From Clostridia bacterium (GTDB lineage: Bacteria > Bacillota > Clostridia > Christensenellales > Borkfalkiaceae): a stretch of DNA of 64,000 nt. The translations under genes and the position numbers were made by a program. The stretch lies in NCBI GenBank assembly GCA_024405475.1, contig JAKSOS010000001.1:11064-75063 (forward strand). The letters are read 5' to 3'. The notes beneath the pieces are model-generated. The model ran no database searches and was not told where the DNA came from. It saw only the letters and a program-made list of their open reading frames with translations. Of this stretch, positions 5,643 to 25,323 are shown in pieces (within the stretch, counting starts at the first letter, position 1; the number at the start of each line of letters is the position of its first letter).

Positions 5643-5672
5643 AGGAACTTCAACTAAACCTACGTTATTTAC

Positions 5673-7434: not shown

Positions 7435-7468
7435 ATAAAAAAAGCATACGCCGTTAAGCGTATGCTTT
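7435..7468 (-). terminator. Rho-independent terminator ending the mdh...frd-transporter operon
   Basis: GC-containing stem gcatacgc/gcgtatgc with a 6-nt loop, followed on the minus strand by a 7-T run. It sits immediately after the transporter stop codon. Confidence 0.8.
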
Positions 7469-7486
7469 TATCTGTTTTTTTACTTT

Positions 7487-8896
7487 TTATAACAACGTTA
7501 CTATAAATTGTGATGCCAAAACGATTAAAACTAATGCGATAGGATACGTAGAAGCGTAAGCAGAAGCAACGTCGTCTGTTTCCGCAACTTTTACGAGTGT
7601 TCCTAATGCAGGAGTACTTGTCATACCGCCCGTTATTGAACCCAAAGTGTTAAGCAAAGGAATTCTCAATACTTTCGTTGCAAAGAAATATCCTACTACC
7701 ATAGGTGCTATCGTCATAATTATTCCTGCACCGAAACCTATTGCGATAATGCCACCCGTTACTTCTTTATTAGATATTTTAGCAACTAATTCTGCACCAC
7801 CTGCTACGCCTGCACCTATCAAGAACAACATTAAACCTAATTCACGCAAAACTTTTGCCGTATGTTCCGGAACTTCTAAAGATAATTTGCCAAAATGACC
7901 GAAATGTCCAAATACCAAACACATTATCAAAACGCCACCGGTCGTTCCTAATGAGAAACAAGTACCTTGATATCCCTTACCCGTTAGTGGAATCTTAATT
8001 GCACCGAATAACAATCCTGCGATAACTGCTAAACCGAAGGCCATTAAACCAAATGGGTCTGCCATGAATAAGCCTTCTTTTTTGCTTATCATCTCCGCAC
8101 CTTCAATCTTTAATAAGCCACGTTCTTTTTCCATATCTGCCTTTAAGAATTTCGGCATAAGTTGAACGAATAATACGACACCGACTACTCCAAACGGATA
8201 TGCTATTGCGTGCCCTAAAGTAACGAATGCATCCCCTGCGTCGTCTGCGGCTTCAAGTGCTGCGGAATACCCAGGCGTCGTTGTCAATGCACCTGATAAA
8301 ATACCTGCCGATAACTCCTTACCGTGATTTGCTTGACCTAAAATCAAGGCAAATATGACTGCGATAATCGCACCTATTACTATAATGATTACGCCGAGCA
8401 ATACGTATGATTTTGCATTTTTCTTTAAGTTCTTAAAAAAGTTAGGACCTGCAATAAATCCTACTGCACCGACGAATAAAACCAAACCTATATTTTGTAC
8501 TATTGAACTGTAATATTTATATAACGTTGCAGAAGAATCTTTAATATATAAATTGTTTAATATAGGCGTTGAATTTAACCATTTCATCGTTGATAAACAA
8601 CCAAAAGCGATAGCGACTAAAAATACGCCTGCCGTTCCGAGTGAAACGCCCTTAATGTTTATACTTCCGAGTAAATATCCCAAAGACGCAACTAAAAACA
8701 TACCGAATAACAACGCTACTACTGCTGAAAATCCGTAGGTTTTATTTTTAACTGCTATTTCGGCATTTGAAGGAACTTTTACAAGGTTAACGATACACCA
8801 AGCAATAATTCCGCATACTAAAACGCCGATTATTGACCAAAATACTATTTTTTTTGCATTATTTTTTTGTTGCAATTTATCATTTTGTTCAATCAT
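7487..8896 (-). CDS. AAEx (aspartate:alanine exchanger / YidE-YbjL-SucE) family transporter, short form without RCK_C domains
   Basis: 469-aa polytopic protein with two internally repeated halves. Each half carries the family block (SINIKGVSLGTAGVFLVAIAFG and CFSLGTTGGVLIMCLVFG...LRELGLMLFLIGAGVAGG). Only about 30 aa link the halves. Confidence 0.7.
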   Translation of the reverse strand: MIEQNDKLQQKNNAKKIVFWSIIGVLVCGIIAWCIVNLVKVPSNAEIAVKNKTYGFSAVVALLFGMFLVASLGYLLGSINIKGVSLGTAGVFLVAIAFGCLSTMKWLNSTPILNNLYIKDSSATLYKYYSSIVQNIGLVLFVGAVGFIAGPNFFKNLKKNAKSYVLLGVIIIVIGAIIAVIFALILGQANHGKELSAGILSGALTTTPGYSAALEAADDAGDAFVTLGHAIAYPFGVVGVVLFVQLMPKFLKADMEKERGLLKIEGAEMISKKEGLFMADPFGLMAFGLAVIAGLLFGAIKIPLTGKGYQGTCFSLGTTGGVLIMCLVFGHFGHFGKLSLEVPEHTAKVLRELGLMLFLIGAGVAGGAELVAKISNKEVTGGIIAIGFGAGIIMTIAPMVVGYFFATKVLRIPLLNTLGSITGGMTSTPALGTLVKVAETDDVASAYASTYPIALVLIVLASQFIVTLL

Positions 8897-8905
8897 AATT
8901 ATCTC

Positions 8906-10516
8906 CTAAATATTTTTTTGTTTCGTGTAGTTTGGCAATAATTTAGGTGATACTAAATCTGTCTTTATATTTGCTTTTGCTAATTCGTTTTCAAAATCTT
9001 TAACATGAGATAAAGTCAAGTCCTTTAATACCGTATTTTTAGCAGCCTTTGCAGATTCTTTACCGGCGTTTCTTCCGAATACTATAATATCTAATAACGA
9101 ATTGCCCATAAGTCTGTTTCTACCGTGAATACCTCCAACGGCTTCACCTGCTACGAATAAGTTTTTAATACCCGTCATACCGTTTGTAGAAATTTCCAAA
9201 CCGCCGTTTTGATAGTGAAGTGTCGGATAAACCAAAATAGGAACTTTTCTAATATCAATATCGTATTTAGCGAACATTCTGTACATTGCAGGAATTCTCT
9301 TTAATATCGTCCCTTCGCCACCTATCATTTCAATCATAGGAGTATCAAGCCATACTGCTTTGCCGTTGCCTGTTTCAACACCTTCGTCTCTATCAGAACA
9401 TTCTCTTATAATACCGGAAGCGTTTACGTCACGTGTTTCTAACGGATGAATATAAGCAACGCCATCACGGTTGACTAATTGTGCGCCGAGCGAACGAACC
9501 TTTTCAGTAACTAATGCACCTAATATTTGTTCAGGGAAAGCAGCTCCGTTCGGGTGATATCGGAACGTTTCCGGATATAAAAGTTTAGCACCTGCCCTAT
9601 AGCCTAAAACTAATCCGTCTGCCGTTGCACCGTAGTGATTAGACGTAGGGAAACCTTGATAGTGCATTCTTCCTGCACCGCCAGTTGCAATAACGACGCA
9701 TTTTGCTCTTGCAATCAAAATATCTTTCGTTTCCATATTGAGTAAAACTGCACCTGCAATCTTACCTTCGGTATCTTTAATAAGTTCAATGGCTGCGGTA
9801 AAATCTACGACTTTAATGCCACGATTTAATACTTCATCACGAAGCGTTCTCATTATTTCTGCGCCCGAATAGTCTTTACAAGCGTGCATACGCTTTCTGC
9901 TTGTACCACCACCGTGCGTTGTAATCATATTTCCGTTTTCGTCTTTATCAAATTCAACACCGAGATTAGATAACCATGCAATCGCTTCAGGTGCTTCGCT
10001 AACTAACTTTTTAACAAGTTCCGGACGATTTGCAAAATGTCCGCCACCCATAACGTCTAAATAGTGAATCGCAGGTGAATCGTTTGGCTTATCTGCGGCT
10101 TGGATACCACCTTCTGCCATCATAGAGTTAGCATCACCCATGCGGAGTTTAGTAACTACCATAACTTCTGCGCCTGCTTCGTTTGCTTCAATAGCGGCAG
10201 AGGCACCTGCGCCACCGCCACCTATAACTAAAACGTCAACGTCGTAATCGGGTTTTGTTAAATCTAAATCAAGGTTTGCTACTCTTGAGTGTGCTTGCAA
10301 CATATCGGCAAGTTCGTGTGGAACTTTCTCGCCCTTGTTTACACCTATTTTAAGATTTTCAAAACTCTCTTCTTTATAGTCAGGGTGATATTGCTTTAAA
10401 ATTGCGTCCTTTTCATCTGCACCCATTCTCTTTATATTATCTTTATTGTTGAATCTTTCTTGACGGGTTTGTTCAACCTTTTTAAGAGATTCAAGGATTT
10501 TTGAATCTGTATACAT
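8906..10516 (-). CDS. Fumarate reductase/succinate dehydrogenase-type flavoprotein (non-covalent FAD type) with N-terminal extension
   Basis: FAD dinucleotide fold VLVIGGGGAGASAA begins only at about aa 95. Frd/Sdh substrate blocks are present: YHPNG (HPTG), TEKVRSLG (catalytic Arg), HYQNGG and GRNRLMGNSLLD. Adjacent to an SdhB-like Fe-S subunit. Confidence 0.75.
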   Translation of the reverse strand: MYTDSKILESLKKVEQTRQERFNNKDNIKRMGADEKDAILKQYHPDYKEESFENLKIGVNKGEKVPHELADMLQAHSRVANLDLDLTKPDYDVDVLVIGGGGAGASAAIEANEAGAEVMVVTKLRMGDANSMMAEGGIQAADKPNDSPAIHYLDVMGGGHFANRPELVKKLVSEAPEAIAWLSNLGVEFDKDENGNMITTHGGGTSRKRMHACKDYSGAEIMRTLRDEVLNRGIKVVDFTAAIELIKDTEGKIAGAVLLNMETKDILIARAKCVVIATGGAGRMHYQGFPTSNHYGATADGLVLGYRAGAKLLYPETFRYHPNGAAFPEQILGALVTEKVRSLGAQLVNRDGVAYIHPLETRDVNASGIIRECSDRDEGVETGNGKAVWLDTPMIEMIGGEGTILKRIPAMYRMFAKYDIDIRKVPILVYPTLHYQNGGLEISTNGMTGIKNLFVAGEAVGGIHGRNRLMGNSLLDIIVFGRNAGKESAKAAKNTVLKDLTLSHVKDFENELAKANIKTDLVSPKLLPNYTKQKNI

Positions 10517-10530
10517 TTTTCCTATCTCCC

Positions 10531-11202
10531 CTATTTTTCAATTTCTCTATTGTTATATAGTTCTTTTAATTCTTCTATAGGTTTATTCATAACTTGTTCA
10601 AGTAAGCTTTCAAACTTGCCTTCTTTAATCTCATTAACTCTTTCTTTTAAGTGTTCGCAAGCAGGGGCTATATATTTACCATAAAGTCTTCTTGATAACA
10701 TTGCAACTTGTGGATGAGAAATACCTGCAGGACAACGTGATGAACAAATACCACACATTACGCAGTCAAAAGATTCTTCTGCGCACTTGTCGTATTCTCC
10801 CCTTTGTGCATATGCGATATATTGCATAACGTTTAAACTTTGTGGGCAAGCTTTAGTACAAGCATTGCAACCGATACAAGAATAAATTTCAGGATATAAT
10901 TGCATCATTATCATTTGATCGGGTTTGATTTTTTCTATATCGTAAACTTGTTTTACTAATGGGAAAAACGGAAGCGTTGCAATATACATTCCGTCTTCAA
11001 CCTTAGTTTGACAAGCAAGACAAGTTTTTAATTCCGGATTGCCTTTGATTCTGTAAATCGTTGCGCACGCACCACAAAATCCGTTTCTGCAACCGCAACC
11101 ACGAACTAATTGATAACCGCTGTATTCCATAGCTTTCATAATAGTAAGTTCTGCTGGAACTGTGTATTTTTTACCAAATAAAAATATATCTACGGTGTTC
11201 AT
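10531..11202 (-). CDS. SdhB/FrdB-like iron-sulfur subunit (2Fe-2S plus two CxxCxxCxxxCP motifs)
   Basis: N-terminal plant-type 2Fe-2S pattern CGCRNGFCGAC...C, then CIGCNACTKACP and CVMCGICSSRCP. Confidence 0.75.
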   Translation of the reverse strand: MNTVDIFLFGKKYTVPAELTIMKAMEYSGYQLVRGCGCRNGFCGACATIYRIKGNPELKTCLACQTKVEDGMYIATLPFFPLVKQVYDIEKIKPDQMIMMQLYPEIYSCIGCNACTKACPQSLNVMQYIAYAQRGEYDKCAEESFDCVMCGICSSRCPAGISHPQVAMLSRRLYGKYIAPACEHLKERVNEIKEGKFESLLEQVMNKPIEELKELYNNREIEK

Positions 11203-11224
11203 AAAATAACTCCTAAAAAATTTC

Positions 11225-12058
11225 TTAATATTCGTCAGGCAATTCGTCTAATTCCGTCATGCAAAAAACCGGACCGTCTTTACAAACGTATTTGCCACCA
11301 ACGTTACATCTTCCGCATTTGCCTATTCCGCATTTCATACGAAGTTCTAACGTCGTATAAATATTCTTCTTTTCAAAACCTAATTCAAGTAATCCTTGGA
11401 GAGTAAACTTAATCATGATAGGCGGACCACACAAAACTGCCGTGTACGTGTTCGGAATATTTACTTCCTTAACGTAATTCGGTACGAATCCTACGTGTCC
11501 CGTCCAACCTTCTTGCTCACGGTCTATCGTAAGATAAACGTCAAAGTCTTTTTCTTTTTGCCACTCGTCTATAATTTCTTTATAGTCAACTAAATCGTCT
11601 GCACTTCTGCTTCCGTAAACGATAGCAACTTTTCCGTAATCCTTTCTGTTATCTCTTATATAATTGATTACTGAACGAAGTGGTGCTAATCCGATACCAC
11701 CGGCTATAAAAAGCATATCTTTTCCCTTAAATACGGTATCTACGGGAAAACATCTGCCGTAAGGTCCACGAACGGTGATTTGTTGACCAACTTCAAACGA
11801 GTGCAACATTTCGGTTACACAACCACACTTCTTAATTGAAAATTCTACGTATTCCGTTTGTGTAGGCGAACTCGTAATTGAAAACAACGCTTCTCCAACC
11901 CCAGGGATACTCAACATAGCACATTGACCGGGCTTGTGAATAAACGGTTTCTTTCCGTCTAACGCAACTACTCTAAACGTCTTTACGTCCGGCGTATCTT
12001 TACGAATATCCGTTATAACGCATACTTGAGGAATCAATGCTTCAAATTCTTTTTCCAT
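11225..12058 (-). CDS. flxA: FlxA-like NAD(P)H-binding FAD/[2Fe-2S] oxidoreductase (PyrK/AsrB/sulfhydrogenase-gamma family)
   Basis: FNR-like fold with the NAD-binding block MLFIAGGIGLAPL and the C-terminal 2Fe-2S motif CGIGKCGRCNVGGKYVCKDGPVF. Confidence 0.75.
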   Translation of the reverse strand: MEKEFEALIPQVCVITDIRKDTPDVKTFRVVALDGKKPFIHKPGQCAMLSIPGVGEALFSITSSPTQTEYVEFSIKKCGCVTEMLHSFEVGQQITVRGPYGRCFPVDTVFKGKDMLFIAGGIGLAPLRSVINYIRDNRKDYGKVAIVYGSRSADDLVDYKEIIDEWQKEKDFDVYLTIDREQEGWTGHVGFVPNYVKEVNIPNTYTAVLCGPPIMIKFTLQGLLELGFEKKNIYTTLELRMKCGIGKCGRCNVGGKYVCKDGPVFCMTELDELPDEY

Positions 12059-13083
12059 TATTTCTTTTCACCCCCAAACGCTTTAATAACTTTAACTATA
12101 TTTAAGTGCGAAGGGCACTTTTTAACACATCTGCCACAACCTACGCAAGAATATAAACCGTCGTTGTTTTCGGGATAATAAACGAGTTTGTGCATAAATC
12201 TTTGACGGAACCTTTGCATTTGCGTCGGTCTCGGTTGACCGCCTGCAGTCTTTGTAAAATCTTTATACATACAAGAGTCCCAACATCTGAATCTCATTAT
12301 CTTATCGTTAGCGTTAAACTCTCTTATATCAAAACATTGACAGGTTGGACAAACAAACGTACAAGTTCCACAACCGAGGCAAGCCTCCGAAAGTTTACTC
12401 CATTTGTCAGACTTAAACGTATCTAACATTTCGTCTTTGGAAAGTGCATTTACGTCTATATTTGAAAATGGCAATTTGCTTATCGTTTCGGTTATTTCTT
12501 GCTTTGCTTTTTCAACTGTCTTTTCGTCGCCTTCGGTAAATAAATCTTTAATCTTTTCGGTTAAGTCTTTACCCTTTTGAGTGTTCGCTTTCCAGAAAAG
12601 TTTATCGCCGACTTTCCACGTAGTTATATCGCCTAACGGAGAAGATGCGTCTATATTAAACGCTTTGCAAAAACAACTTTCTTCAGGTCTATCGCAAGCG
12701 AGCGTTATAATAATACCTGCTTCTCTTTTAGTTTTATAATACGTATCAATAGGGTCAACTAAAAACACTCTGTCTAAAACTTCAAAAGCCTTATAGTCGC
12801 AAGCTTTAACGCCCATAACTACAAAAGGTTGTGCTTCCTTTCTCGTATCAATTATTTCAATCTTTTGACCGTCAACTTTAAACTTCATCAAGTCTTCGGT
12901 TTGTGGAAAAAACATATCCTTTGGAGACTTGTTCGTCTTTAACGTAAAGAGTGAAACTTCTGCGCCGTTAGAATACTTATCGTAATTAACTTCGTTGGCT
13001 TTCTTTATAGGTAAAACTAACGGATATAAACTTGCTATTTTTTCATAAAGCAAAGGTAAAGATGAAATATCAATTTTAAGCAT
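12058..13083 (-). CDS. flxB: FlxB-like iron-sulfur protein (AsrA/sulfhydrogenase-beta family)
   Basis: 341 aa with C-terminal CLGCGTCTFVCPTC and CVGCGRCVKKCP motifs. 1-nt shared stop/start with both neighbours. Confidence 0.65.
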   Translation of the reverse strand: MLKIDISSLPLLYEKIASLYPLVLPIKKANEVNYDKYSNGAEVSLFTLKTNKSPKDMFFPQTEDLMKFKVDGQKIEIIDTRKEAQPFVVMGVKACDYKAFEVLDRVFLVDPIDTYYKTKREAGIIITLACDRPEESCFCKAFNIDASSPLGDITTWKVGDKLFWKANTQKGKDLTEKIKDLFTEGDEKTVEKAKQEITETISKLPFSNIDVNALSKDEMLDTFKSDKWSKLSEACLGCGTCTFVCPTCQCFDIREFNANDKIMRFRCWDSCMYKDFTKTAGGQPRPTQMQRFRQRFMHKLVYYPENNDGLYSCVGCGRCVKKCPSHLNIVKVIKAFGGEKK

Positions 13084-14057
13084 TACTTTTTACCCCCTAC
13101 AACAGTATTCGCTTCAACGTCGTCCTTTTTAAAATCTACTATAGGATTTAACGGAGTTACTGTTTCGCCTGCTTGATATTCCCCATAGTTTGTATTCATA
13201 TCTTTTATTATCTTTCTATTGATTAAGTGGAGTGGTATTCCTTGTGGACATACTCTTGAACACTCACCGCAATCGGTGCATCTGCCTGCCACGTGGAAAG
13301 CACGAATTATATGATAAAGTTTTTCTTCAAAACTGTCTGCATTTGCCTTGCCTGCAATTCCCGACTTGTTATTGTCAAATACGCAGTTTGTACAAGTACA
13401 AGCAGGGCAAACGTTTCTGCAAGCATTACAACGAATACATTTAGATAATTCCGCTTGCCAGAAAGCAAACCTTTCTTCTTCGGTCATACTTTCAAGTTTT
13501 TCTACGATATCAAAACGCTTTTCCTTATTGTCTTTCATTTCGTTTAAGACAATCTTTTCATCAAATACTACTAACTTCTTACTCTTACAAGTTTCGCACT
13601 TTACTGAAAATACTTCGTCTTTTTTAACGGTTTTATCGCCGTATATCGTTTTTATCTTTAATTCGGAATCCGTTTCTTCAATATCTAAAATACCGTCTAT
13701 ACCCTTTGCATAAACTTTATTGATATCTAATTTACCTTGGCACTCTATACCAACTACGTAAACTTTTTCTCTGTTTATTCTGTGTTCCGAAAGAAGTTGA
13801 TTAAAACTGTATGTATCACAAGGCTTTAAGAAAACCAAAACCTTGCCTTCTTTTTTCGTTTCTTCTACTAAAAACTTTGATAAGTTTGCACCGCAAAAAG
13901 CGTTATACGTAAACCCATCAAAACTTTCCTTAAAAATTGCGGGTGAAACGTCAAAATAAGATTCGCCTTTTTTCCATGCTAAAACTCTGTCAACTTCTCC
14001 GCTTGCTATTTTCTTTAAAGCAAGTTCTTGCATTAAGGATTCTAATTTTTCTTGCAT
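13083..14057 (-). CDS. flxC: FlxC-like iron-sulfur protein
   Basis: 324 aa with CIRCNACRNVCPACTC and CTDCGECSRVCP motifs. The N-terminal half is paralogous in layout to flxB. Confidence 0.6.
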   Translation of the reverse strand: MQEKLESLMQELALKKIASGEVDRVLAWKKGESYFDVSPAIFKESFDGFTYNAFCGANLSKFLVEETKKEGKVLVFLKPCDTYSFNQLLSEHRINREKVYVVGIECQGKLDINKVYAKGIDGILDIEETDSELKIKTIYGDKTVKKDEVFSVKCETCKSKKLVVFDEKIVLNEMKDNKEKRFDIVEKLESMTEEERFAFWQAELSKCIRCNACRNVCPACTCTNCVFDNNKSGIAGKANADSFEEKLYHIIRAFHVAGRCTDCGECSRVCPQGIPLHLINRKIIKDMNTNYGEYQAGETVTPLNPIVDFKKDDVEANTVVGGKK

Positions 14058-14488: not shown

Positions 14489-16467
14489 ATTGCTTCTATC
14501 TCCTTATTGATTTGTTCAAAACTGAATCCGTGAATATCCATTGCTCCCGACGGACAAGTAACTGTACAAGCGCCACAACCTTGACATACTGCAGGATTAA
14601 CGCAAGCAACACGCCTTTTCTCCGTTTTGCCACCACCGATTCTGAATTCTTTTTCTTCATAAGTGATTGCACCGTACGGACAAACTTGTTCACATTGACT
14701 ACAACCGATACAAGTATTCTCATCACAATGAGATACACAAGGATTGCCTTTTAATTTATCTTTTGCTAAAAGTCCTATAACTTTTGACGCTGCTGCCGAT
14801 GCTTGAGAAACGGTTTCAGGTACGTCTTTAGGTCCTTGACAAACACCTGCAAGGAATACGCCTGCCGTTGCACATTCAACCGGCTTTAACTTTGCGTGCG
14901 CCTCAGTTAAGAAATTGTTTGTATCTATACTTATCGTAAGTTTCGTCGCTATATCTCTTACTGAAGGGTCGGGTTCTATGGCAGTTGCTAAAACTACTAA
15001 ATCAGAAGGAATAGTAATTTGTTCGTTATCTAATAAATTACTTCCTTGAACCATCAACTTGCCGTTTTCGTTATAAACTTTACCAACCATACCTTTAATA
15101 TAATCTACGTTATATTGTTCTACTGCTCTGCGATAAAATTCGTCGTAATTTTTACCGGGAGTTCTTACGTCTATATAGAATACGTGTACTTCGGTATCAG
15201 GATATTTTTCACGAATAAGCATTGCGTGTTTTGCAGTGTACATACAGCAAATCTTACTGCAATACGGTTTTCCGCAACCTGAAACATCTCTTGAACCGAC
15301 ACATTGAATAAACGTTATAACTTTAGGGTGAGTTAAATCACTTGGACGAAGCAACGTGCCTTTTGTCGGACCTGCTGCGTTCATAAGTCTTTCTAATTCC
15401 AAAGAAGTGATAACGTCTTTATTATCTGCATAACCGTACTCGTTAAAATTATCAAGTTTTATAGGTCTGAAACCTGTTGCAACTACTATAGCGCCGTATT
15501 CTCTTTCAACGATTTCGTCTTTTTGAGTATAATCAATAGCACCTGCGCCACATTTCATTTGACAAAGACCGCACTTGCCAGTCTTTAATTTTAAGCATTG
15601 TTCAGGGTCAATTACCGCAACGTTTGGAATTGCTTGTGCAAACGGAATATATATAGCAGGTCTGTTATTTAAATCCATATTGAATTCGTTAAGTCCCTTT
15701 TTAGAAGGGCAGTTTGCCATACATACGCCACAGCCTGTACATTTCTTTTCATCAACGTATCTTGCTTTCTTTCTGATTTTAACCTTAAAGTTTCCGACGA
15801 AGCCTTTTACTTCTTCAATTTCGGAATAAGTAAACATATTGATTTTCTCATTTTGAGCACAATCAACCATTTTAGGCGTTAAGATACAAGCCGCACAGTC
15901 AAGCGTTGGGAACGTCTTATCAAGTTGAGCCATTCTGCCACCGATAGTCGGTCTTTTTTCAACGATATCAACTTCGTATCCTGCATCTGCAATATCTAAC
16001 GCTGCTTGAATACCTGCAATACCGCCACCTATTATAAGTGCACGCTTTGTTACGCCTGTTTCACCTGCGATAAGAGGCTTGTTTAAGGTCAATTTTGCAA
16101 TAGCCGTTCTTGCTAAAACAATAGCCTTTTCGGTTGCTTCTTCTATATCTTTATGTATCCAACTGCATTGTTCACGAATATTTGCAATTTCAACTAAATA
16201 CGGATTTAAGCCGGCTTCTTCCGCCGTCTTTCTGAAAGTTGCTTCGTGCATTCTCGGAGAACAAGAACATACAACAACGCCGGTAAGTTTATTTTCCCTA
16301 ATGGCAGTTTTTATGAGTTGTTGTCCATTTTCAGAACACATATATTGATAATTTTGAGCAAACACTACGTACGGTTCTTTTTTAACCGCTTCGGTCACTC
16401 TCTCTACATCTACCGTTGCTGCAATATTAGTACCGCAATGGCAAATAAAAACACCAATCCTTTGCAT
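14476..16467 (-). CDS. hdrA: Heterodisulfide reductase subunit A-like flavoprotein (bifurcating FAD subunit)
   Basis: 663 aa. N-terminal Cys-rich domain (FICHCGTN...VVCSCSPR), FAD fold ALIIGGGIAGIQAALD, an inserted ferredoxin motif CTGCGVCMANCP and C-terminal CIGCSQCEQVCP/CQGCGACTVTCP. Confidence 0.9.
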   Translation of the reverse strand: MQRIGVFICHCGTNIAATVDVERVTEAVKKEPYVVFAQNYQYMCSENGQQLIKTAIRENKLTGVVVCSCSPRMHEATFRKTAEEAGLNPYLVEIANIREQCSWIHKDIEEATEKAIVLARTAIAKLTLNKPLIAGETGVTKRALIIGGGIAGIQAALDIADAGYEVDIVEKRPTIGGRMAQLDKTFPTLDCAACILTPKMVDCAQNEKINMFTYSEIEEVKGFVGNFKVKIRKKARYVDEKKCTGCGVCMANCPSKKGLNEFNMDLNNRPAIYIPFAQAIPNVAVIDPEQCLKLKTGKCGLCQMKCGAGAIDYTQKDEIVEREYGAIVVATGFRPIKLDNFNEYGYADNKDVITSLELERLMNAAGPTKGTLLRPSDLTHPKVITFIQCVGSRDVSGCGKPYCSKICCMYTAKHAMLIREKYPDTEVHVFYIDVRTPGKNYDEFYRRAVEQYNVDYIKGMVGKVYNENGKLMVQGSNLLDNEQITIPSDLVVLATAIEPDPSVRDIATKLTISIDTNNFLTEAHAKLKPVECATAGVFLAGVCQGPKDVPETVSQASAAASKVIGLLAKDKLKGNPCVSHCDENTCIGCSQCEQVCPYGAITYEEKEFRIGGGKTEKRRVACVNPAVCQGCGACTVTCPSGAMDIHGFSFEQINKEIEAICKR

Positions 16468-16483
16468 AATATTTTCCTTTCAA

Positions 16484-16870
16484 TTATTTTTTGTATTTTC
16501 TGAAAGCCGAAACAAGTAATTGTTGTGGCAATAATTCTTCTACGATAGGTGGAATATCGTTTGCACTTATTCCATCTTTTCCTTGCATTCTCGCAACCGT
16601 ATCTCTTACGGCTTCAATAACGTTTGCAGGCGCTACTCCCCTTGGACAACGCTCTACACAAGCCATACAAGACAAACAGTTCCATATAGCCTTTGAATTT
16701 AATAGCTTATCTAACTTTCCTTGCGCTAAATAACTAACAAATTGATGAGGCTTTATATCCATTTCAGTAAAAGCAGGGCATCTTCCCGAACACTTACCGC
16801 ATTTCATACATTTTTTAACATCAGTTCCCGAAATTCTATTGATGTTTTCTAATTCGTTTTTATTAACCAT
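16484..16870 (-). CDS. hdrC: Heterodisulfide reductase subunit C-like (2x[4Fe-4S])
   Basis: 128 aa with CMKCGKCSGRCP and CLSCMACVERCP. Positioned between hdrB and hdrA. Confidence 0.8.
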   Translation of the reverse strand: MVNKNELENINRISGTDVKKCMKCGKCSGRCPAFTEMDIKPHQFVSYLAQGKLDKLLNSKAIWNCLSCMACVERCPRGVAPANVIEAVRDTVARMQGKDGISANDIPPIVEELLPQQLLVSAFRKYKK

Positions 16871-16874
16871 CTCG

Positions 16875-17654
16875 CTATTCCTTTACACCCAACGCTTCGG
16901 CTAAAACTTCGGTTATATATTTAACTTCTATTTCTCCGTTTGCTACCTTTTTTAAATTGTAATAACAAAGCGGACAAGCCGTTACGATTACTTCTATACC
17001 GAAACTCTTTGCGTTTTTAATTACGTTTTTACTCTTTTGTTCGGCAAGATCCGGATTCTTAATCTTTACGTAAGCGCCACAGCATTCGTTCCTGAACGGA
17101 TACTTTATAGGCGTACCACCTATTGCGCTGATAAAATCTTCTAAGACTTTTGGATTTTCGGGATTATCAAAAGCCATAACGCTACTTGGTCTAAGCAATA
17201 AACAACCGTAATATGCACCCACCTTTTTGTTAAGTGGATTTTTTACCGCTTGCTTGATTTTATCAAAACCTACCATATCTCTTAACATCTCTATATAATG
17301 AATAACTTTCGTTTCTCCGTTATAAGGTTCGTCAAGTTTCATATAGTTGTTTGCTTTGCTGTTTATCTCTTTATCGTTCGCCATGTCGTCATTAACTCTT
17401 TTAATAACGTTATGACAAGCCGAACACAAAGTCAAAAGCATACCGCCGTTATGCTTTGCATAGTCTAATGCACGAACGGCTGAAAGCTTTGTCGCAATTT
17501 CGTCTTTAGCAATGGGATAAACACCACCGCAACATTGCCAGTCTTTTATTTCTTCCATTTCTACGCCGAGCGCTTTTGCCGAAGCCCTTGCATATTTATC
17601 AAGTTCAACGGCTTGAGTTTTTAACGTACAGCCTGGAAAATAATTGATTTTCAT
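16875..17654 (-). CDS. hdrB: Heterodisulfide reductase subunit B-like, two CCG domains
   Basis: Two complete C-X31-CC-X34-CxxC motifs: PGC...WQCCGG...CSACHN and YGC...NECCGA...CPLCYY. Confidence 0.85.
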   Translation of the reverse strand: MKINYFPGCTLKTQAVELDKYARASAKALGVEMEEIKDWQCCGGVYPIAKDEIATKLSAVRALDYAKHNGGMLLTLCSACHNVIKRVNDDMANDKEINSKANNYMKLDEPYNGETKVIHYIEMLRDMVGFDKIKQAVKNPLNKKVGAYYGCLLLRPSSVMAFDNPENPKVLEDFISAIGGTPIKYPFRNECCGAYVKIKNPDLAEQKSKNVIKNAKSFGIEVIVTACPLCYYNLKKVANGEIEVKYITEVLAEALGVKE

Positions 17655-17672
17655 ATAAATACCTTTTTTAGA

Positions 17673-19052
17673 TTATTTCTTTTGATATATCATTTGTTCC
17701 GGATGGAATACTTCATCAAACTTTTCAGCAGTTAAGAAACCTAATTCTACGCACGCTTCTTTTAATGAGATATTATCCTTATGCGCTTTCTTTGCTGTCT
17801 TTGCGGCATTTTCATAACCGATATACGGATTGAGTGCCGTAACAAGCATTAAGGAATTATGAAGATTATGAGCCATTTTTTCTTTGTTTGCCTTAATCCC
17901 CGTTACGCAATTCTTTTCAAACGAAGTTATTCCGTCGGCGAGCAATCTTACCGATTGCAAGAAGTTATAAATAATAACCGGCATAAATACGTTTAATTCA
18001 AAGTTGCCTTGTGATGCGCCGAGTCCAACTGCCGTATCGTTAGCGATAACTTGAACGGCAACCATCGTCATTGATTCGCATTGAGTCGGATTAACTTTAC
18101 CCGGCATTATTGAACTACCCGGTTCGTTTTCAGGAATAAAGATTTCTCCAAGTCCATCACGAGGTCCTGATGCCAACCATCTTATATCGTTTGCGATTTT
18201 CATTAAGTTGCAAGCGAGTGCTTTTAATGCGCCGTGTGCAAATACCAAATCGTCTTTACTCGTTAAAGCGTGGAATTTATTTTCCGCCGTCTTAAACTCT
18301 TTACCGGTAATAACCGAAACTTGTTTTGCAACCTCTTCGGCAAAACCGATAGGAGCGTTTAAGCCAGTTCCTACTGCCGTTCCACCAAGTGCTAATTCAT
18401 TTAAGCCGTGGAGCGAATAAGAAATTTCTTCCTTGTTTTTTTCTATCATTGAACGCCAACCGCTAATCTCTTGCGAAAATCCGATAGGGACTGCGTCTTG
18501 AAGGTGCGTTCTACCACTTTTTACTACTCCTTCGTTTTCTTTTTCCAAACGACGGAAAGTAGCGATAATTTTATCCATTGCAGGCAATAATTTGTCTTCT
18601 ATTTCAACGACTGCCGCAATGTGCATTGCCGTTGGAAAAGTATCGTTAGATGATTGACTCTTATTTACGTCGTCATTTGGGTGAAGAAGTTTCTTTCCCG
18701 CAATTTCGTTGCCACGGTTTGCTACGACTTCGTTAACGTTCATATTAGATTGAGTGCCACTTCCCGTTTGCCATACTGCAAGTGGGAATTGACGACCGTT
18801 ATGAATACCTGAAATTATTTCGTCGCAAACTTCACAAATGATTTTCTTTTTTTCTTCGTCAATCTTTCCGAGATTGTAATTTGCGATTACCGCCGCCTTT
18901 TTCAAAATACCAAATGCCTTGATAACTTCAAGTGGTATTTTTTCCGTGCTTATCTGAAAGTTCTCATAACTTCTTTGAGTTTGTGCTCCCCAGTATCTGT
19001 CAACCGGAACTTTCATTTCTCCCATTGTGTCTTTTTCTATACGATACTCCAT
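17673..19052 (-). CDS. fumC: Class II fumarate hydratase
   Basis: 459 aa with the fumarate lyase signature GSSIMPGKVNPTQCE and a typical N-terminus MEYRIEKDTMGEMKVP. Confidence 0.95.
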   Translation of the reverse strand: MEYRIEKDTMGEMKVPVDRYWGAQTQRSYENFQISTEKIPLEVIKAFGILKKAAVIANYNLGKIDEEKKKIICEVCDEIISGIHNGRQFPLAVWQTGSGTQSNMNVNEVVANRGNEIAGKKLLHPNDDVNKSQSSNDTFPTAMHIAAVVEIEDKLLPAMDKIIATFRRLEKENEGVVKSGRTHLQDAVPIGFSQEISGWRSMIEKNKEEISYSLHGLNELALGGTAVGTGLNAPIGFAEEVAKQVSVITGKEFKTAENKFHALTSKDDLVFAHGALKALACNLMKIANDIRWLASGPRDGLGEIFIPENEPGSSIMPGKVNPTQCESMTMVAVQVIANDTAVGLGASQGNFELNVFMPVIIYNFLQSVRLLADGITSFEKNCVTGIKANKEKMAHNLHNSLMLVTALNPYIGYENAAKTAKKAHKDNISLKEACVELGFLTAEKFDEVFHPEQMIYQKK

Positions 19053-19069
19053 TTTTAATTTCTCCTAAA

Positions 19070-20011
19070 TTAGAAATTGATACTTGAAATAACTGTTTTA
19101 AGTGCTTCTGCAGAAGCTTGCATCTTCTTTACTTCTTCGTCAGAAAGTTTTTGTGCAACCGTTGACTTTAATCCGTTCTTACCGATAAGTGCCAACGTGC
19201 TTAAACATACATCTTTGATTCCGTATTCGCCTTCCATCAACGTTGATAAAGGAAGTACCGTTTCGCTTTCACCTTGTAAACACTTTAATATGTACATAAC
19301 TGAAGTTGCGATTCCGTAAACGGTGCAACCTTTCTTTGCGATAATCGTACCGCCTGATTTTTTAACGTATTCTTCTGCTTCTTCGTGTGTGTATGACTTA
19401 AAGTCAACGTTCTTTGCAGTGATGTCTTCAACGTATTCGTTGAGTGGAACGCCACCGATTGTTGCTGTTGACCAAGAAACGAAAGAACTGTCTCCATGTT
19501 CACCTAAAACGTTTGCATAAACTTGACTTTGATTTACTTTGTAGCATTCAGAAAGCATCGTGCGAAGTCTTATCGTATCTAAAAGTGTACCCGTGCCAAC
19601 TACTTGAGTTTTTGGTAAACCCGTAAACTTGATAAACGCATAAGTTAAAACGTCAACTGGGTTTGCTACTAATAAATAAAATGCCTTTGGAGCATACTTA
19701 ACGATTTCAGAAGAAACCGCTTTTAATATGTTTACATTTATTTGCGCCAACTCTAATCTCGTTTGACCAGGTTTTCTGCCAACACCAGAAGAAATTACAA
19801 CGACGTCAGAATCAACTGCGTCTGCATATTCTCCTGCTCTAACTTTGCTGTTAAAAAGCAATGGGGTTGCTTGAACCATATCTAACGCTTCGCCAGAAGC
19901 TTTGTCTTTGTTGACATCAATCAATACAATTTCTGAAGCGGCATTTGCTGCTAAAATTGCATACGCTGTTGTTGCACCTACTGCACCGGCACCAATAATT
20001 GTTACTTTCAT
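19070..20011 (-). CDS. mdh: LDH-like malate dehydrogenase (Arg at the substrate-discriminating position)
   Basis: Rossmann motif IIGAGAVG and catalytic GEHGDS. The loop reads GVGRKPGQTR, with Arg (codon at 19775-19777) where L-lactate dehydrogenases have Gln. The operon also contains fumC. Confidence 0.8.
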   Translation of the reverse strand: MKVTIIGAGAVGATTAYAILAANAASEIVLIDVNKDKASGEALDMVQATPLLFNSKVRAGEYADAVDSDVVVISSGVGRKPGQTRLELAQINVNILKAVSSEIVKYAPKAFYLLVANPVDVLTYAFIKFTGLPKTQVVGTGTLLDTIRLRTMLSECYKVNQSQVYANVLGEHGDSSFVSWSTATIGGVPLNEYVEDITAKNVDFKSYTHEEAEEYVKKSGGTIIAKKGCTVYGIATSVMYILKCLQGESETVLPLSTLMEGEYGIKDVCLSTLALIGKNGLKSTVAQKLSDEEVKKMQASAEALKTVISSINF

Positions 20012-20061
20012 TTTTTATTTCTCCTTTTTTACTTATAATTTTCCATTTTTATATTTTTTCT

Positions 20062-20091
20062 ATTATATCAATTTTGTGCTTTTTTTGTCAA
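20062..20091 (-). promoter_or_regulatory. Near-consensus SigA promoter for the mdh-fumC-hdr-flx-frd operon
   Basis: On the minus strand: TTGACA (20086-20091), 18-nt spacer, TGaTATAAT extended -10 (20062-20067 plus TG). It lies about 50 nt upstream of mdh, which has an AAGGAG SD. Confidence 0.65.
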
Positions 20092-20150: not shown

Positions 20151-20179
20151 AAAAAAATGCTTACAAACTTGTAAGCATT
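20151..20179 (-). terminator. Rho-independent terminator after nfnB
   Basis: Stem aatgcttacaa/ttgtaagcatt followed on the minus strand by a 7-T run, just downstream of the nfnB stop. Confidence 0.75.
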
Positions 20180-20191
20180 TCACATTTTTTG

Positions 20192-21586: not shown

Positions 21587-21597
21587 ACCTTTCCCTC

Positions 21598-25319: not shown

Positions 25320-25323
25320 AAAT

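What the first reader, a model, noticed from the sequence alone, without database searches (positions are those of the whole stretch)
7487..20091. One 12-gene operon joins a Flx-Hdr electron-bifurcation module to an anchor-less FrdAB-type fumarate reductase, with mdh, fumC and an AAEx exporter: candidate NADH-dependent, ferredoxin-coupled fumarate reductase
Seen in sequence:
- A near-consensus promoter lies at 20062-20091 and the first strong terminator at about 7435-7468.
- Between them are 12 same-strand genes with gaps of 22 nt or less or overlaps: mdh, fumC, hdrB, hdrC, hdrA, mvhD/flxD, flxC, flxB, flxA, an SdhB-like Fe-S protein, an FrdA-like flavoprotein, and an AAEx transporter.
- No membrane anchor (FrdCD or SdhCD) and no quinone-related gene is present.

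Established knowledge:
- FlxABCD-HdrABC is an NADH-linked Hdr-type complex described in Desulfovibrio, proposed to bifurcate electrons between ferredoxin and a high-potential disulfide.
- Hdr-like modules are attached to other terminal reductases, for example HdrABC-MvhD with MetFV in acetogens and Qmo with AprAB.
- CCG-domain (HdrB-like) proteins already partner fumarate/succinate enzymes in methanogen thiol:fumarate reductase TfrAB and in type E SdhABEF.

Inference:
- The operon encodes oxaloacetate to malate to fumarate to succinate.
- The exergonic NADH-to-fumarate step would be routed through HdrA so that it drives ferredoxin reduction, analogous to Bcd-Etf with crotonyl-CoA.
- Succinate would then be exported.
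- I am not aware of a characterised bacterial Flx-Hdr-Frd complex, but I cannot search to confirm novelty.
Basis: partly seen in the sequence, partly recalled or inferred. Interest (0 to 1): 0.88.

Follow-up and report, generated by a model that had tools for sequence, protein, structure and literature searches.

The report
Hdr-Flx-linked soluble fumarate reductase operon
A real, tightly packed 12-gene operon in an uncultured gut Clostridia genome joins an NADH-oxidising, electron-splitting Flx-Hdr module to an anchor-less fumarate reductase; the arrangement is conserved in many gut and rumen species, but this idea was already published in 2019-2020 for Pseudoclostridium thermosuccinogenes and nobody has yet proved it biochemically.

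Summary
Twelve minus-strand genes (7487-20011) have gaps of 22 nt or less or overlap. They sit between a perfect sigma-70 promoter (20062-20091) and a strong terminator (7440-7469). Gene calls hold: MDH-type LDH-family enzyme, class II fumarase, HdrB, HdrC, HdrA, MvhD/FlxD, FlxC, FlxB, FlxA, a small Fe-S protein, a fumarate-reductase-superfamily flavoprotein and an AAEx transporter.

- **Conservation.** The nine-gene core hdrBCA-mvhD-flxCBA-frdBA is collinear in 55 of 55 related genomes with enough upstream DNA. At least 589 stretches in a one-genome-per-species collection encode relatives.
- **The flavoprotein is not a classical FrdA.** It is nearest TfrA but below every curated cut-off. It lacks the C-terminal domain and the covalent-FAD histidine, and has a conserved 90-residue N-terminal extension. 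All fumarate-binding and catalytic residues are invariant, and the NadB-specific Glu is replaced.
- **The Fe-S subunit** has three complete cysteine sets, so no 3Fe-4S cluster is expected.
- **A 46%-identical FrdBA pair in marine Gammaproteobacteria** pairs with a single NuoF-like subunit instead. The reductase module is therefore portable and needs no thiol-handling domain of its own.

Most likely mechanism: 2 NADH + fumarate + oxidised ferredoxin give succinate + reduced ferredoxin. It cannot be tested in silico. The same hypothesis is published (PMC7282089, PMC6315080). I file it as a new member of a known but uncharacterised kind.

The parts
20151..20180 (-). Hairpin plus T-run that terminates the upstream nfnAB-like/glutamine synthetase III genes; marks the upstream boundary of the operon
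   Evidence: Sequence read (aaatgcttacaagtttgtaagcattttttt); the palindrome was also listed
20062..20091 (-). Sigma-70-type promoter, TTGACA-18 nt-TATAAT with TG extension
   Evidence: 12/12 match; 2 perfect sites in the window against 0.05 expected
19070..20011 (-). LDH-family 2-hydroxyacid dehydrogenase with Arg at the Q102 position; predicted malate dehydrogenase
   Evidence: Ldh_1_N and Ldh_1_C domains; L-LDH model 326 bits, MDH equivalog below cut-off; motif GRKPGQTR with R79 conserved in 45/45 syntenic homologs
17673..19052 (-). Class II fumarate hydratase (fumC)
   Evidence: TIGR00979, 728 bits, above the cut-off of 664.75; Lyase_1 and FumaraseC_C domains
16875..17654 (-). HdrB-like protein with two complete CCG motifs (10 Cys)
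   Evidence: CCG domain twice; full-length match to methanogen HdrB 8rvv_B, E 6e-39; Cys 9, 41, 42, 77, 80, 151, 191, 192, 227, 230 conserved in 55/55
16484..16870 (-). HdrC-like protein, 2x[4Fe-4S]
   Evidence: Fer4_8 and related domains; best NCBIfam model is HdrC; two CxxCxxCxxxC motifs
14476..16467 (-). HdrA, FAD and multi-[4Fe-4S] flavoprotein; candidate site of electron bifurcation
   Evidence: Residues 3-660 align to 5-649 of M. wolfeii HdrA 5odc_A, E 9e-205; HdrA2 model 799 bits
14042..14488 (-). MvhD/FlxD, [2Fe-2S] electron-transfer subunit
   Evidence: PF02662 FlpD, E 2e-53
13083..14057 (-). FlxC-like Fe-S protein
   Evidence: 4Fe-4S dicluster domain at residues 203-274, 16 Cys
12058..13083 (-). 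FlxB-like Fe-S protein (sulfhydrogenase beta / AsrA type)
   Evidence: Fer4_22; ShyB model 194 bits and AsrA model 137 bits
11225..12058 (-). FlxA-like NAD(P)H-binding FAD/[2Fe-2S] subunit; electron entry point
   Evidence: FAD_binding_6, NAD_binding_1 and DHODB_Fe-S_bind domains
10531..11202 (-). Small Fe-S subunit of the reductase ('FrdB'): N-terminal [2Fe-2S] domain plus two CxxCxxCxxxCP motifs
   Evidence: Fer2_4 and Fer4 domains; residues 11-90 match the TfrB N-terminus; weak SdhB match and an RnfC-like dicluster; cysteines conserved in 74-78 homologs
8906..10516 (-). Fumarate-reductase-superfamily flavoprotein ('FrdA', TfrA-like). It has a 90-aa N-terminal extension, no C-terminal domain and non-covalent FAD
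   Evidence: FAD_binding_2 at residues 94-474 only; TfrA model best at 328 bits, below the cut-off of 718; H321, T337, E338, R341, R362, H434, R468 conserved in 80/80; best Foldseek hits are E. coli FrdA, Fcc3 and SdhA
7487..8896 (-). AAEx-family (Asp-Al_Ex) transporter; predicted succinate exporter or exchanger
   Evidence: PF06826 twice, E 1e-58; YidE_YbjL_dupl domain 155.7 bits, above the cut-off of 71.95; the family includes a succinate exporter (PMC9527358)
7440..7469 (-). Intrinsic terminator, 13-bp stem followed by a T-run

Best explanation
The operon encodes a quinone-independent, cytoplasmic reductive branch from oxaloacetate to succinate.

1. The LDH-family enzyme with Arg at the specificity position reduces oxaloacetate to malate. 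FumC then dehydrates malate to fumarate.
2. Fumarate is reduced by a soluble FrdBA module: a TfrA-like flavoprotein with non-covalent FAD, plus a [2Fe-2S]/2x[4Fe-4S] subunit.
3. That module is wired to FlxABCD-HdrABC. FlxA oxidises NADH. Electrons pass through FlxB, FlxC and MvhD to the HdrA flavin.
4. At the HdrA flavin each electron pair is split. One electron goes down the high-potential branch HdrC, HdrB, FrdB, FrdA-FAD to fumarate (+33 mV). The other goes up to ferredoxin. Net reaction: 2 NADH + fumarate + oxidised ferredoxin give 2 NAD+ + succinate + reduced ferredoxin.
5. Succinate leaves through the AAEx transporter. Reduced ferredoxin is re-oxidised elsewhere, for example by the HydABC-type hydrogenase encoded directly downstream.

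Shown here: gene content, operon structure, intact cofactor and catalytic motifs, and strict co-inheritance of the nine core genes.

Inferred: physical association of the subunits, direct Fe-S wiring without a thiol mediator, ferredoxin reduction, and the direction of the reaction.
For: - One promoter, one terminator, and gaps of 22 nt or less.
- All nine core genes are collinear in 55/55 loci with enough upstream DNA. fumC is present in 49/52, mdh+fumC in 45/52, and the AAEx gene in 50/74. The record titles name several Clostridia families.
- A 55%-identical FrdA homolog again sits behind hdrA-mvhD-hdrC-hdrB-frdB (L084).
- The fumarate-binding and catalytic residues H321, T337, E338, R341, R362, H434 and R468 are invariant.
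- The residue aligned to the covalent-FAD His is Asn130 in 80/80. By established FRD/SDH biochemistry this favours fumarate reduction over succinate oxidation.
- NadB Glu121 aligns to His201 in 80/80.
- HdrA aligns end to end with the structurally solved bifurcating HdrA. HdrB keeps both CCG cysteine sets.
- There is only one CCG protein in the operon and FrdB has none. The gammaproteobacterial FrdBA homologs work with a NuoF-like subunit and no CCG protein at all. This argues for direct wiring.
- Seven extra subunits, where one NuoF-like subunit suffices elsewhere, argue for an added function such as bifurcation.
- Thermodynamics: the potentials NADH -320 mV and fumarate +33 mV are quoted in PMC5861303.
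- The same model was proposed, with co-regulated transcription of the whole operon, in P. thermosuccinogenes (PMC7282089).
Against: - No biochemical evidence was found for any Flx-Hdr-Frd complex. A 2024 paper still calls the Hdr-Flx to Tfr link a theoretical model (PMC11636981).
- Even the founding FlxABCD-HdrABC complex is, to my knowledge, characterised genetically rather than enzymatically.
- HdrB keeps a complete disulfide-reducing cysteine set, which would be unnecessary for a pure electron relay.
- The 80 syntenic loci are all at least 71% identical in FrdA, so they sample one clade.
- The flavoprotein falls below every curated family cut-off, so its substrate is inferred from residues and context.
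- The AlphaFold model is of low confidence around the FAD and active-site loops.
- Orthology to the P. thermosuccinogenes genes rests on the published description, not on an alignment.
Confidence: 0.6

Rival explanations
1. Two enzymes coupled by a diffusible thiol/disulfide couple, as in methanogens. Flx-Hdr would reduce an unknown disulfide (a low-molecular-weight thiol or a DsrC-like protein) with NADH while reducing ferredoxin. The Tfr-like FrdBA would then re-oxidise the thiols to reduce fumarate.
For: - The flavoprotein is nearest TfrA.
- HdrB keeps both complete CCG motifs that build the disulfide-reducing noncubane clusters.
- Models involving a DsrC-like protein are mentioned for the symbiont clusters (PMC11636981).
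Against: - Thiol oxidation by Tfr needs a CCG domain on the reductase side. In TfrB that domain is fused, whereas here HdrB aligns to TfrB positions 262-487 and FrdB only to positions 19-99.
- The operon has only one CCG protein, so one site would have to both make and consume the thiol.
- No DsrC-like or other small thiol-protein gene can fit in the operon, because all gaps are 22 nt or less.
- Homologous FrdBA in Gammaproteobacteria functions with only a NuoF-like partner and no CCG protein.
Confidence: 0.12
2. A non-bifurcating soluble NADH:fumarate oxidoreductase. Flx-Hdr would serve only as an elaborate electron wire from NADH to FrdBA, with no ferredoxin reduced and no energy conserved.
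For: - The related FrdBA + NuoF-like three-gene clusters (L081-L083) suggest that simple NADH:fumarate reductases of this family exist.
- Soluble NADH-dependent fumarate reductases are known from my own recollection (Hydrogenobacter thermophilus five-subunit enzyme; Klebsiella FRD). This was not checked here.
Against: - Seven subunits with about 100 cysteines, including a full-length HdrA with its C-terminal ferredoxin-like domain, are kept under strict synteny in 55/55 genomes, although one subunit suffices elsewhere.
- This would waste about 350 mV in organisms living on fermentation.
- In P. thermosuccinogenes, added H2 abolishes succinate formation. The authors interpret this as ferredoxin coupling (PMC7282089).
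Confidence: 0.17
3. The complex runs in reverse as a confurcating succinate dehydrogenase: succinate + reduced ferredoxin + 2 NAD+ give fumarate + 2 NADH. Succinate would be taken up by the AAEx protein and passed through FumC and Mdh to oxaloacetate.
For: - Bifurcating enzymes are reversible in principle.
- AAEx members include exchangers such as AspT.
- Gut Clostridia meet abundant external succinate.
- A hydrogenase and Nfn-like genes lie next door.
Against: - The covalent-FAD histidine is replaced by Asn in 80/80. By established FRD/SDH biochemistry, non-covalent FAD supports fumarate reduction but not efficient succinate oxidation.
- P. thermosuccinogenes, which has the same type of operon, excretes succinate (PMC7282089).
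Confidence: 0.05
4. The flavoprotein is not a fumarate reductase but another FAD_binding_2 enzyme (L-aspartate oxidase, urocanate reductase or another enoate reductase). Mdh and FumC would then be neighbours for another reason.
For: - The protein is below all curated cut-offs. The NadB model scores 264 bits, not far behind TfrA at 328 bits.
- Many gut FAD_binding_2 reductases act on other substrates (my own knowledge).
Against: - The full His/Arg dicarboxylate-binding set and the proton-donor Arg are invariant.
- NadB-specific Glu121 is replaced by His.
- fumC lies directly upstream in 49/52 loci.
- The partner is an SdhB/TfrB-like 2Fe-2S subunit, which NadB and urocanate reductase lack.
Confidence: 0.05

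Closest known systems
'Succinate operon' of Pseudoclostridium (Clostridium) thermosuccinogenes (Koendjbiharie & van Kranenburg 2019 preprint; PMC7282089)
   Same: The published composition and order match: fumarate hydratase, seven Flx-Hdr genes, two fumarate reductase genes, then a putative succinate transporter. The hypothesis is the same: fumarate reduction coupled to ferredoxin reduction via Flx-Hdr. The P. thermosuccinogenes operon is transcribed and regulated as a unit.
   Different: The window operon has an additional LDH-family mdh as its first gene, and its transporter is identifiable as AAEx. The host is an uncultured mesophilic gut Clostridia MAG. Sequence-level orthology could not be checked here because neither the genome nor the preprint was reachable.
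FlxABCD-HdrABC of Desulfovibrio vulgaris (Ramos et al. 2015, as cited in PMC7282089 and PMC6315080)
   Same: All seven subunit types are present with the expected domains and are contiguous. NADH is the proposed donor and ferredoxin the proposed low-potential acceptor.
   Different: The gene order is inverted (hdrBCA-flxDCBA). The proposed high-potential acceptor is fumarate via FrdBA rather than a DsrC disulfide. No dsrC or adh genes are nearby.
Thiol:fumarate reductase TfrAB of methanogens
   Same: The flavoprotein's best family match is TfrA. The enzyme is soluble and anchor-less. An SdhB-like Fe-S chain is combined with an HdrB-type CCG module. The TfrB model is covered piecewise by FrdB (positions 19-99), HdrC (122-218) and HdrB (262-487).
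   Different: The score is far below the TfrA cut-off (328 against 718). The CCG module is a separate protein encoded six genes away. There is an extra N-terminal extension and no helical or C-terminal domain. CoM/CoB thiols are not expected in Clostridia.
tfrAB interspersed with flxABCD-hdrABC and korABCD in rTCA gene clusters of tubeworm symbionts and Thioflavicoccus mobilis (PMC6315080; PMC11636981)
   Same: The idea is the same: Hdr-Flx feeds electrons directly to a Tfr-like fumarate reductase. Locus L084, found here, has korDABC-hdrA-mvhD-hdrC-hdrB-frdB-frdA with a 55%-identical FrdA.
   Different: Those clusters serve autotrophic CO2 fixation and include OGOR and ATP-citrate lyase. The window operon is a fermentative branch with mdh, fumC and an exporter.
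Butyryl-CoA dehydrogenase/EtfAB and MetFV-HdrABC-MvhD (functional analogues)
   Same: Exergonic reduction of a C=C bond, or of another high-potential acceptor, with NADH drives ferredoxin reduction (Bcd-Etf: PMC5861303). An Hdr module attached to a non-disulfide terminal reductase (MetFV) is from my own knowledge.
   Different: Bcd-Etf uses a different bifurcating flavoprotein family. The terminal reductase also differs.
Membrane-bound quinol:fumarate reductase FrdABCD / complex II
   Same: The flavoprotein fold and catalytic residues are shared. The best Foldseek hits are E. coli FrdA at E 2e-23. The partner has a 2Fe-2S plus dicluster architecture.
   Different: There are no anchor subunits, no quinone involvement, no covalent FAD histidine, no Succ_DH_flav_C domain and no 3Fe-4S motif.

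Membership tests
FlxABCD-HdrABC NADH dehydrogenase/heterodisulfide reductase | HdrA, HdrB (two CCG motifs) and HdrC homologs encoded together | tested here: met
   HdrA aligns full-length to 5odc_A, E 9e-205. HdrB aligns to 8rvv_B, E 6e-39, with all 10 Cys. HdrC has two 4-Cys motifs.
FlxABCD-HdrABC NADH dehydrogenase/heterodisulfide reductase | FlxA with FAD, NAD(P)H and 2Fe-2S domains; FlxB and FlxC Fe-S proteins; FlxD = MvhD; all contiguous with hdr | tested here: met
   FlxA has FAD_binding_6, NAD_binding_1 and DHODB_Fe-S_bind. FlxB has Fer4_22 and matches ShyB/AsrA-like models. FlxC has a dicluster domain. FlpD scores E 2e-53. The genes overlap or lie 22 nt or less apart.
FlxABCD-HdrABC NADH dehydrogenase/heterodisulfide reductase | NADH-dependent reduction of ferredoxin together with a disulfide (DsrC) acceptor | not testable with these tools
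   This needs anaerobic enzymology. No dsrC-like gene lies in the operon.
P. thermosuccinogenes-type 'succinate operon' (Flx-Hdr-linked fumarate reductase) | Fumarate hydratase + 7 Flx-Hdr genes + 2 fumarate reductase genes + transporter in one operon | tested here: met
   The window gene order matches the description in PMC7282089.
P. thermosuccinogenes-type 'succinate operon' (Flx-Hdr-linked fumarate reductase) | Sequence orthology of FrdA/FrdB to CDQ83_RS03320-25 | not tested
Thiol:fumarate reductase TfrAB | TfrA-type flavoprotein above the family cut-off | tested here: not met
   NF004900 is the best model, but at 328 bits against a cut-off of 718, and only positions 6-425 of 546 are covered.
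Thiol:fumarate reductase TfrAB | TfrB: Fe-S subunit fused to HdrB-like CCG domains that oxidise CoM-SH/CoB-SH | tested here: not met
   FrdB is 223 aa and has no CCG domain. It matches only TfrB positions 19-99. The CCG protein is a separate hdrB gene.
Quinol:fumarate reductase / succinate:quinone reductase (complex II) | Flavoprotein with a C-terminal Succ_DH_flav_C domain and the covalent-FAD histidine | tested here: not met
   Only FAD_binding_2 is found, at residues 94-474. Asn130 aligns with the SdhA histidine in the RSHT motif, and this is Asn in 80/80 homologs.
Quinol:fumarate reductase / succinate:quinone reductase (complex II) | Membrane anchor subunit(s) and a 3Fe-4S cluster facing the quinone site | tested here: not met
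   No anchor gene is in the operon or window. Both dicluster motifs are complete CxxCxxCxxxCP.
Fumarate reductase/succinate dehydrogenase/NadB flavoprotein superfamily (catalytic core) | HPxG His, T-E-x-x-R, proton-donor Arg (RD), HY His and NRL Arg | tested here: met
   H321, T337, E338, R341, R362, H434 and R468 align with the Fcc3, SdhA and NadB residues. They are invariant in A1 and in 80/80 loci. Foldseek's best hits are FrdA, Fcc3 and SdhA.
L-aspartate oxidase (NadB) | Score above the NadB cut-off and the LASPO-specific Glu121 | tested here: not met
   TIGR00551 scores 264 bits against a cut-off of 452.75. NadB E121 (in 'TREGGH') aligns with His201 (in 'TTHGGG'), which is His in 80/80. 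The role of E121 is from my own knowledge of the LASPO literature.
Malate dehydrogenase (LDH-like type) | Arg instead of Gln at LDH position 102 | tested here: met
   The motif is GRKPGQTR. R79 is conserved in 45/45 syntenic homologs. By HMM alone the protein passes the L-LDH model and not the MDH equivalogs. The specificity rule (Q102R) is established knowledge.
AAEx (aspartate:alanine exchanger) transporter family | Two Asp-Al_Ex / YidE-YbjL duplication domains | tested here: met
   PF06826 matches twice, E 1e-58. TIGR01625 scores 155.7 bits, above the cut-off of 71.95. Succinate as the substrate is inferred from context and from the family's known succinate exporter (PMC9527358).

The most novel reading that the evidence does not exclude
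The nine-gene core would encode one soluble Flx-Hdr-FrdBA supercomplex that forms a distinct substrate class of HdrA-based flavin electron bifurcation (NADH + fumarate + ferredoxin). In it, HdrB's noncubane clusters would act as a pure electron relay to an SdhB-like subunit rather than as a disulfide-reducing site. This complex would be the main quinone-free route to succinate, and an overlooked energy-conserving 'fumarate respiration without a membrane', in many gut and rumen Clostridia species. The FrdBA module would be a portable terminal reductase that evolution has plugged into Flx-Hdr, Kor-Hdr or a single NuoF-like subunit.
Probability: 0.4. Interest if true: 0.75.

Novelty: new member of a known kind. 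Interest (0 to 1): 0.45.

Why it matters
If the complex bifurcates, succinate formation in many gut and rumen Clostridia yields reduced ferredoxin, and so extra H2 or ion-motive force via Rnf, rather than only consuming NADH. That would change redox and ATP balances in models of gut and rumen fermentation, hydrogen and methane budgets, and succinate cross-feeding.

It would add a new terminal acceptor to the short list of HdrA-type bifurcating enzymes. It would also test whether HdrB's CCG clusters can work without thiol chemistry.

The question is directly testable, because P. thermosuccinogenes is cultivable and now has CRISPRi tools (PMC9044749). What this analysis adds to the published idea:
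- the breadth of the operon (at least 589 matching stretches in a one-genome-per-species collection);
- strict synteny of the nine-gene core;
- the residue-level case for fumarate as the substrate;
- the portability of FrdBA between different electron-input modules.

Tried and rejected
- **The 2019 preprint.** I tried to read 10.20944/preprints201912.0288.v1, but it is not held. Its content is known here only through PMC7282089.
- **Later biochemistry.** Searches for 'bifurcating fumarate reductase', 'Flx-Hdr' with fumarate reductase, and HdrA with fumarate reductase from 2020 on found none.
- **Direct comparison with P. thermosuccinogenes.** This was not possible.
- **Rex-box search.** The pattern TTGTTAANNNNTTAACAA with up to 3 mismatches gave 24 matches against 20.7 expected, none near the promoter. 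There is no evidence for Rex control.
- **Genes replacing the AAEx transporter.** In the 24 of 74 loci without it, the downstream ORFs are variable. I did not annotate them.
- **AlphaFold2 model of the flavoprotein.** Mean pLDDT is 73. The FAD and active-site loops score below 50, so I used the model only for fold assignment. The N-terminal extension is confidently helical, but its role (docking?) remains a guess.
- **NadB identity.** Considered and rejected.
- **Classical FrdAB identity.** Considered and rejected.

Full report
**1. The observation**

The region holds twelve minus-strand ORFs between 20011 and 7487. Intergenic distances are 17, 18, 4, 16, -13, -16, -1, -1, 22, 14 and 9 nt. Each start codon is preceded by a GGAG/AGGA-type ribosome-binding site.

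- **Promoter.** A TTGACA-18-TATAAT promoter with a TG extension lies at 20091-20062. A perfect match to this pattern occurs only twice in the 64 kb window, against 0.05 expected from shuffles.
- **Upstream boundary.** Immediately upstream, a hairpin plus T-run (20180-20151) ends the preceding nfn-like genes.
- **Downstream boundary.** A 13-bp stem with a T-run at 7469-7440 follows the last gene. A new promoter-like site (7390-7362) then precedes the next gene.
- **Internal signals.** The only internal terminator-like hit on the coding strand is weak: 7 pairs at 14451-14430.

**2. Gene identities**

Pfam and NCBIfam scans support every call, with nuances.

- **Gene 1 ('mdh').** It has Ldh_1_N and Ldh_1_C domains and passes the L-LDH equivalog (326 bits against a cut-off of 303.55). 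It fails the MDH equivalogs. However, it has Arg in the motif GRKPGQTR at the position where LDHs have Gln102. This Arg is present in 45/45 syntenic homologs. By the established Q102R specificity rule it is an LDH-like malate dehydrogenase.
- **Gene 2.** Class II fumarase, TIGR00979 at 728 bits against a cut-off of 664.75.
- **HdrB.** It carries two complete CCG cysteine sets (Cys 9, 41, 42, 77, 80 and Cys 151, 191, 192, 227, 230). It aligns end to end with methanogen HdrB (E 6e-39).
- **HdrC.** Two 4-Cys motifs.
- **HdrA.** Residues 3-660 align with residues 5-649 of the structurally solved bifurcating HdrA of M. wolfeii (5odc_A, E 9e-205).
- **MvhD/FlxD.** PF02662, E 2e-53.
- **FlxB and FlxC.** Fe-S proteins of the sulfhydrogenase-beta/AsrA type.
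- **FlxA.** FAD, NAD and 2Fe-2S domains.
- **Last gene.** A two-domain Asp-Al_Ex (AAEx) transporter. The AAEx family includes a known succinate exporter (PMC9527358).

**3. The reductase is not a classical FrdAB**

*The flavoprotein (536 aa)*
- It has only FAD_binding_2, at residues 94-474. There is no Succ_DH_flav_C domain.
- Its best curated model is TfrA at 328 bits (cut-off 718). NadB follows at 264 bits (cut-off 452.75) and Sdh/Frd models at about 260 bits. It belongs to none of these families by their cut-offs.
- Alignments to SdhA, NadB and flavocytochrome c3 show the full dicarboxylate-binding and catalytic set: H321 (HPxG), T337, E338, R341, R362 (the proton-donor 'RD' Arg), H434 and R468. 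These are invariant in 37 aligned homologs and in 80/80 related loci.
- The histidine that carries covalent FAD in SdhA/FrdA is Asn130 in 80/80. From established FRD/SDH biochemistry, non-covalent FAD supports fumarate reduction but not efficient succinate oxidation.
- The L-aspartate-oxidase-specific Glu121 aligns with His201 in 80/80.
- A 90-residue N-terminal extension (conserved YHPDYK motif) and a short C-terminal tail (SPKLLPNY) are conserved.
- In an AlphaFold2 model the extension is confidently helical (mean pLDDT 73 overall). The best Foldseek hits are E. coli FrdA, flavocytochrome c3 and SdhA.

*The partner Fe-S protein (223 aa)*
- It has an N-terminal 2Fe-2S domain that weakly resembles SdhB/TfrB, and two complete CxxCxxCxxxCP motifs.
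- I therefore predict 2Fe-2S plus two 4Fe-4S clusters and no 3Fe-4S cluster.

*Context*
- No anchor or quinone-related gene was found among the ORFs scanned in the window; the rest is housekeeping.

**4. Conservation**

- The flavoprotein has thousands of relatives at more than 70% identity, mostly from Clostridia MAGs.
The record titles of the 80 best name Oscillospiraceae, Ruminococcus, Christensenellaceae, Acutalibacteraceae, Lachnospiraceae and others, from human, ruminant and chicken guts.
- All 55 of 55 loci with at least 7.4 kb of upstream DNA carry hdrB-hdrC-hdrA-mvhD-flxC-flxB-flxA-frdB-frdA, collinear and compact.
- fumC precedes the core in 49/52 loci. mdh+fumC precede it in 45/52. 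The AAEx gene follows directly in 50/74.
- The nine-gene core is thus the conserved unit. mdh, fumC and the transporter are frequent accessories.
- Caveat: these loci are all at least 71% identical in FrdA, so they sample one clade.

**5. More distant relatives show a portable reductase module**

Representatives clustered at 50% identity show that the subfamily with the N-terminal extension is compact.

- **55% homolog (L084).** It sits in korDABC-hdrA-mvhD-hdrC-hdrB-frdB-frdA, with hdrB next to frdB.
- **46% homolog, abundant in marine Gammaproteobacteria MAGs (L081-L083).** It sits in a three-gene cluster: frdB-like, frdA-like and a NuoF-like protein (51K FMN domain plus NADH_4Fe-4S). There are no Hdr, Flx or CCG proteins. 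The N-terminal motif and all catalytic residues are retained.
- **FrdB-FrdA fusion (L086).** A fusion protein of 727 aa also exists.

Two inferences follow.
- FrdBA accepts electrons through Fe-S wiring from whichever NADH module it is attached to, and needs no thiol-handling domain of its own.
- A single subunit can deliver NADH electrons. Retaining seven Flx-Hdr subunits therefore suggests an added function, most plausibly ferredoxin reduction by bifurcation.

**6. Mechanism**

The best-supported model is as follows.
1. FlxA oxidises NADH.
2. Electrons reach the HdrA flavin through FlxB, FlxC and MvhD.
3. The flavin splits each electron pair. One electron goes to ferredoxin. The other goes through HdrC, HdrB and FrdB to FrdA-FAD and then to fumarate.
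4. Net reaction: 2 NADH + fumarate + oxidised ferredoxin give 2 NAD+ + succinate + reduced ferredoxin.

The potentials (NADH -320 mV, fumarate +33 mV; PMC5861303) leave ample driving force, as with crotonyl-CoA in Bcd-Etf.

- **Shown:** genes, motifs, operon structure and co-inheritance.
- **Inferred:** complex formation, direct wiring, ferredoxin coupling and direction.

Rivals considered:
- **Thiol/disulfide mediator, as in methanogens.** It is disfavoured because the operon has only one CCG protein and no room for a carrier gene.
- **Plain NADH:fumarate reductase.**
- **Reverse, confurcating succinate oxidation.** It is disfavoured by the non-covalent FAD.
- **Another substrate.** It is disfavoured by the catalytic residues and by the fumC linkage.

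**7. Prior art**

The hypothesis is not new.
- PMC7282089 (2020) describes the P. thermosuccinogenes 'succinate operon': fumarate hydratase, a seven-gene Flx-Hdr, a two-gene fumarate reductase and a putative succinate transporter. It reports about 4-fold co-regulation. It assumes ferredoxin-coupled fumarate reduction, citing Ramos et al. [quoted passage not shown]
- PMC6315080 (2019) noted tfrAB interspersed with flxABCD-hdrABC in rTCA clusters and proposed direct electron delivery.
- PMC11636981 (2024) still calls this a theoretical model.
- A 2024 preprint lists HdrA-Sdh/Frd associations in Firmicutes, including Ruminococcus champanellensis.
- No paper in the searched library reports purification or assay of such a complex.

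**8. Verdict**

The feature is real and correctly read, and the mechanistic inference is the most likely one. It is a further member of an already described, though biochemically uncharacterised, kind.

What this analysis adds:
- the breadth and strictness of the synteny;
- the residue-level case for fumarate reduction with non-covalent FAD;
- the absence of a 3Fe-4S motif;
- the MDH-type residue in an LDH-scored enzyme;
- the modular use of FrdBA with Flx-Hdr, Kor-Hdr or a NuoF-like subunit.

Interest is moderate (0.45). A specialist would not be surprised by the idea, but the open question is important and directly testable.

Noticed in passing
window 4935-6812 (-), stop codon at 5673-5675: The HydB/NuoF-like gene of the downstream HydABC-type cluster is split by a single in-frame TAA. 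The context is [25 protein letters not shown], and from my recollection of NuoF/HydB sequences a Lys is expected at the stop (not checked here). This is either a nonsense mutation (pseudogene) or an assembly error in this MAG.
   Followed up: partly
window 3154-7300 (-) and 20192-22434 (-): The succinate operon is flanked by two other bifurcation-type modules. Downstream lies a HydABC-like cluster with a group A6 'NADH-dependent [FeFe] hydrogenase' (NF040763, 839 bits against a cut-off of 765). Upstream lies an NfnAB-like / GltA-like pair, followed by a type III glutamine synthetase. That makes three ferredoxin/NAD(P)H-linked systems within about 20 kb.
   Followed up: partly
L081-L083, 9366-12891 (+): Marine Gammaproteobacteria MAGs carry a three-gene cluster: frdB-like (212 aa), frdA-like (545 aa, 46% identical, same N-terminal motif) and a NuoF-like protein (418 aa). 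No Hdr or Flx genes are present. This is a candidate minimal soluble NADH:fumarate reductase.
   Followed up: partly
L084, 811-9771 (+): A contig from run SRR24270839 has korDABC-hdrA-mvhD-hdrC-hdrB-frdB-frdA, with FrdA 55% identical to the window protein. This is an OGOR-Hdr-Frd arrangement like the symbiont rTCA clusters.
   Followed up: partly
L086, 5250-7433 (+): A 727-aa natural fusion of the FrdB-like and FrdA-like proteins (52% identical over the FrdA part). No Hdr or Flx genes lie on the 7.7 kb contig.
   Followed up: no
protein P0286 (cluster of P0134): A 43%-identical homolog that includes the N-terminal extension is named as coming from 'Prochlorococcus sp. MIT 1201', on a 2.59 Mb contig. 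This is unexpected for an oxygenic phototroph. Its genomic context was not examined.
   Followed up: no
window 24661-26304 (+): The window's second perfect consensus promoter (24661-24689) precedes a YgjV-like membrane protein (24714-25319). That gene overlaps an ORF (25303-26304) that is only the C-terminal ATP-pyrophosphatase part of GMP synthase, with no GATase domain next to it.
   Followed up: no
window 19070-20011 (-): Automated family models would name the first operon gene L-lactate dehydrogenase (TIGR01771 above its cut-off). However, it has the MDH-type Arg at position 102, which is conserved in 45/45 syntenic homologs. This is a likely source of systematic mis-annotation in these genomes.
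   Followed up: yes
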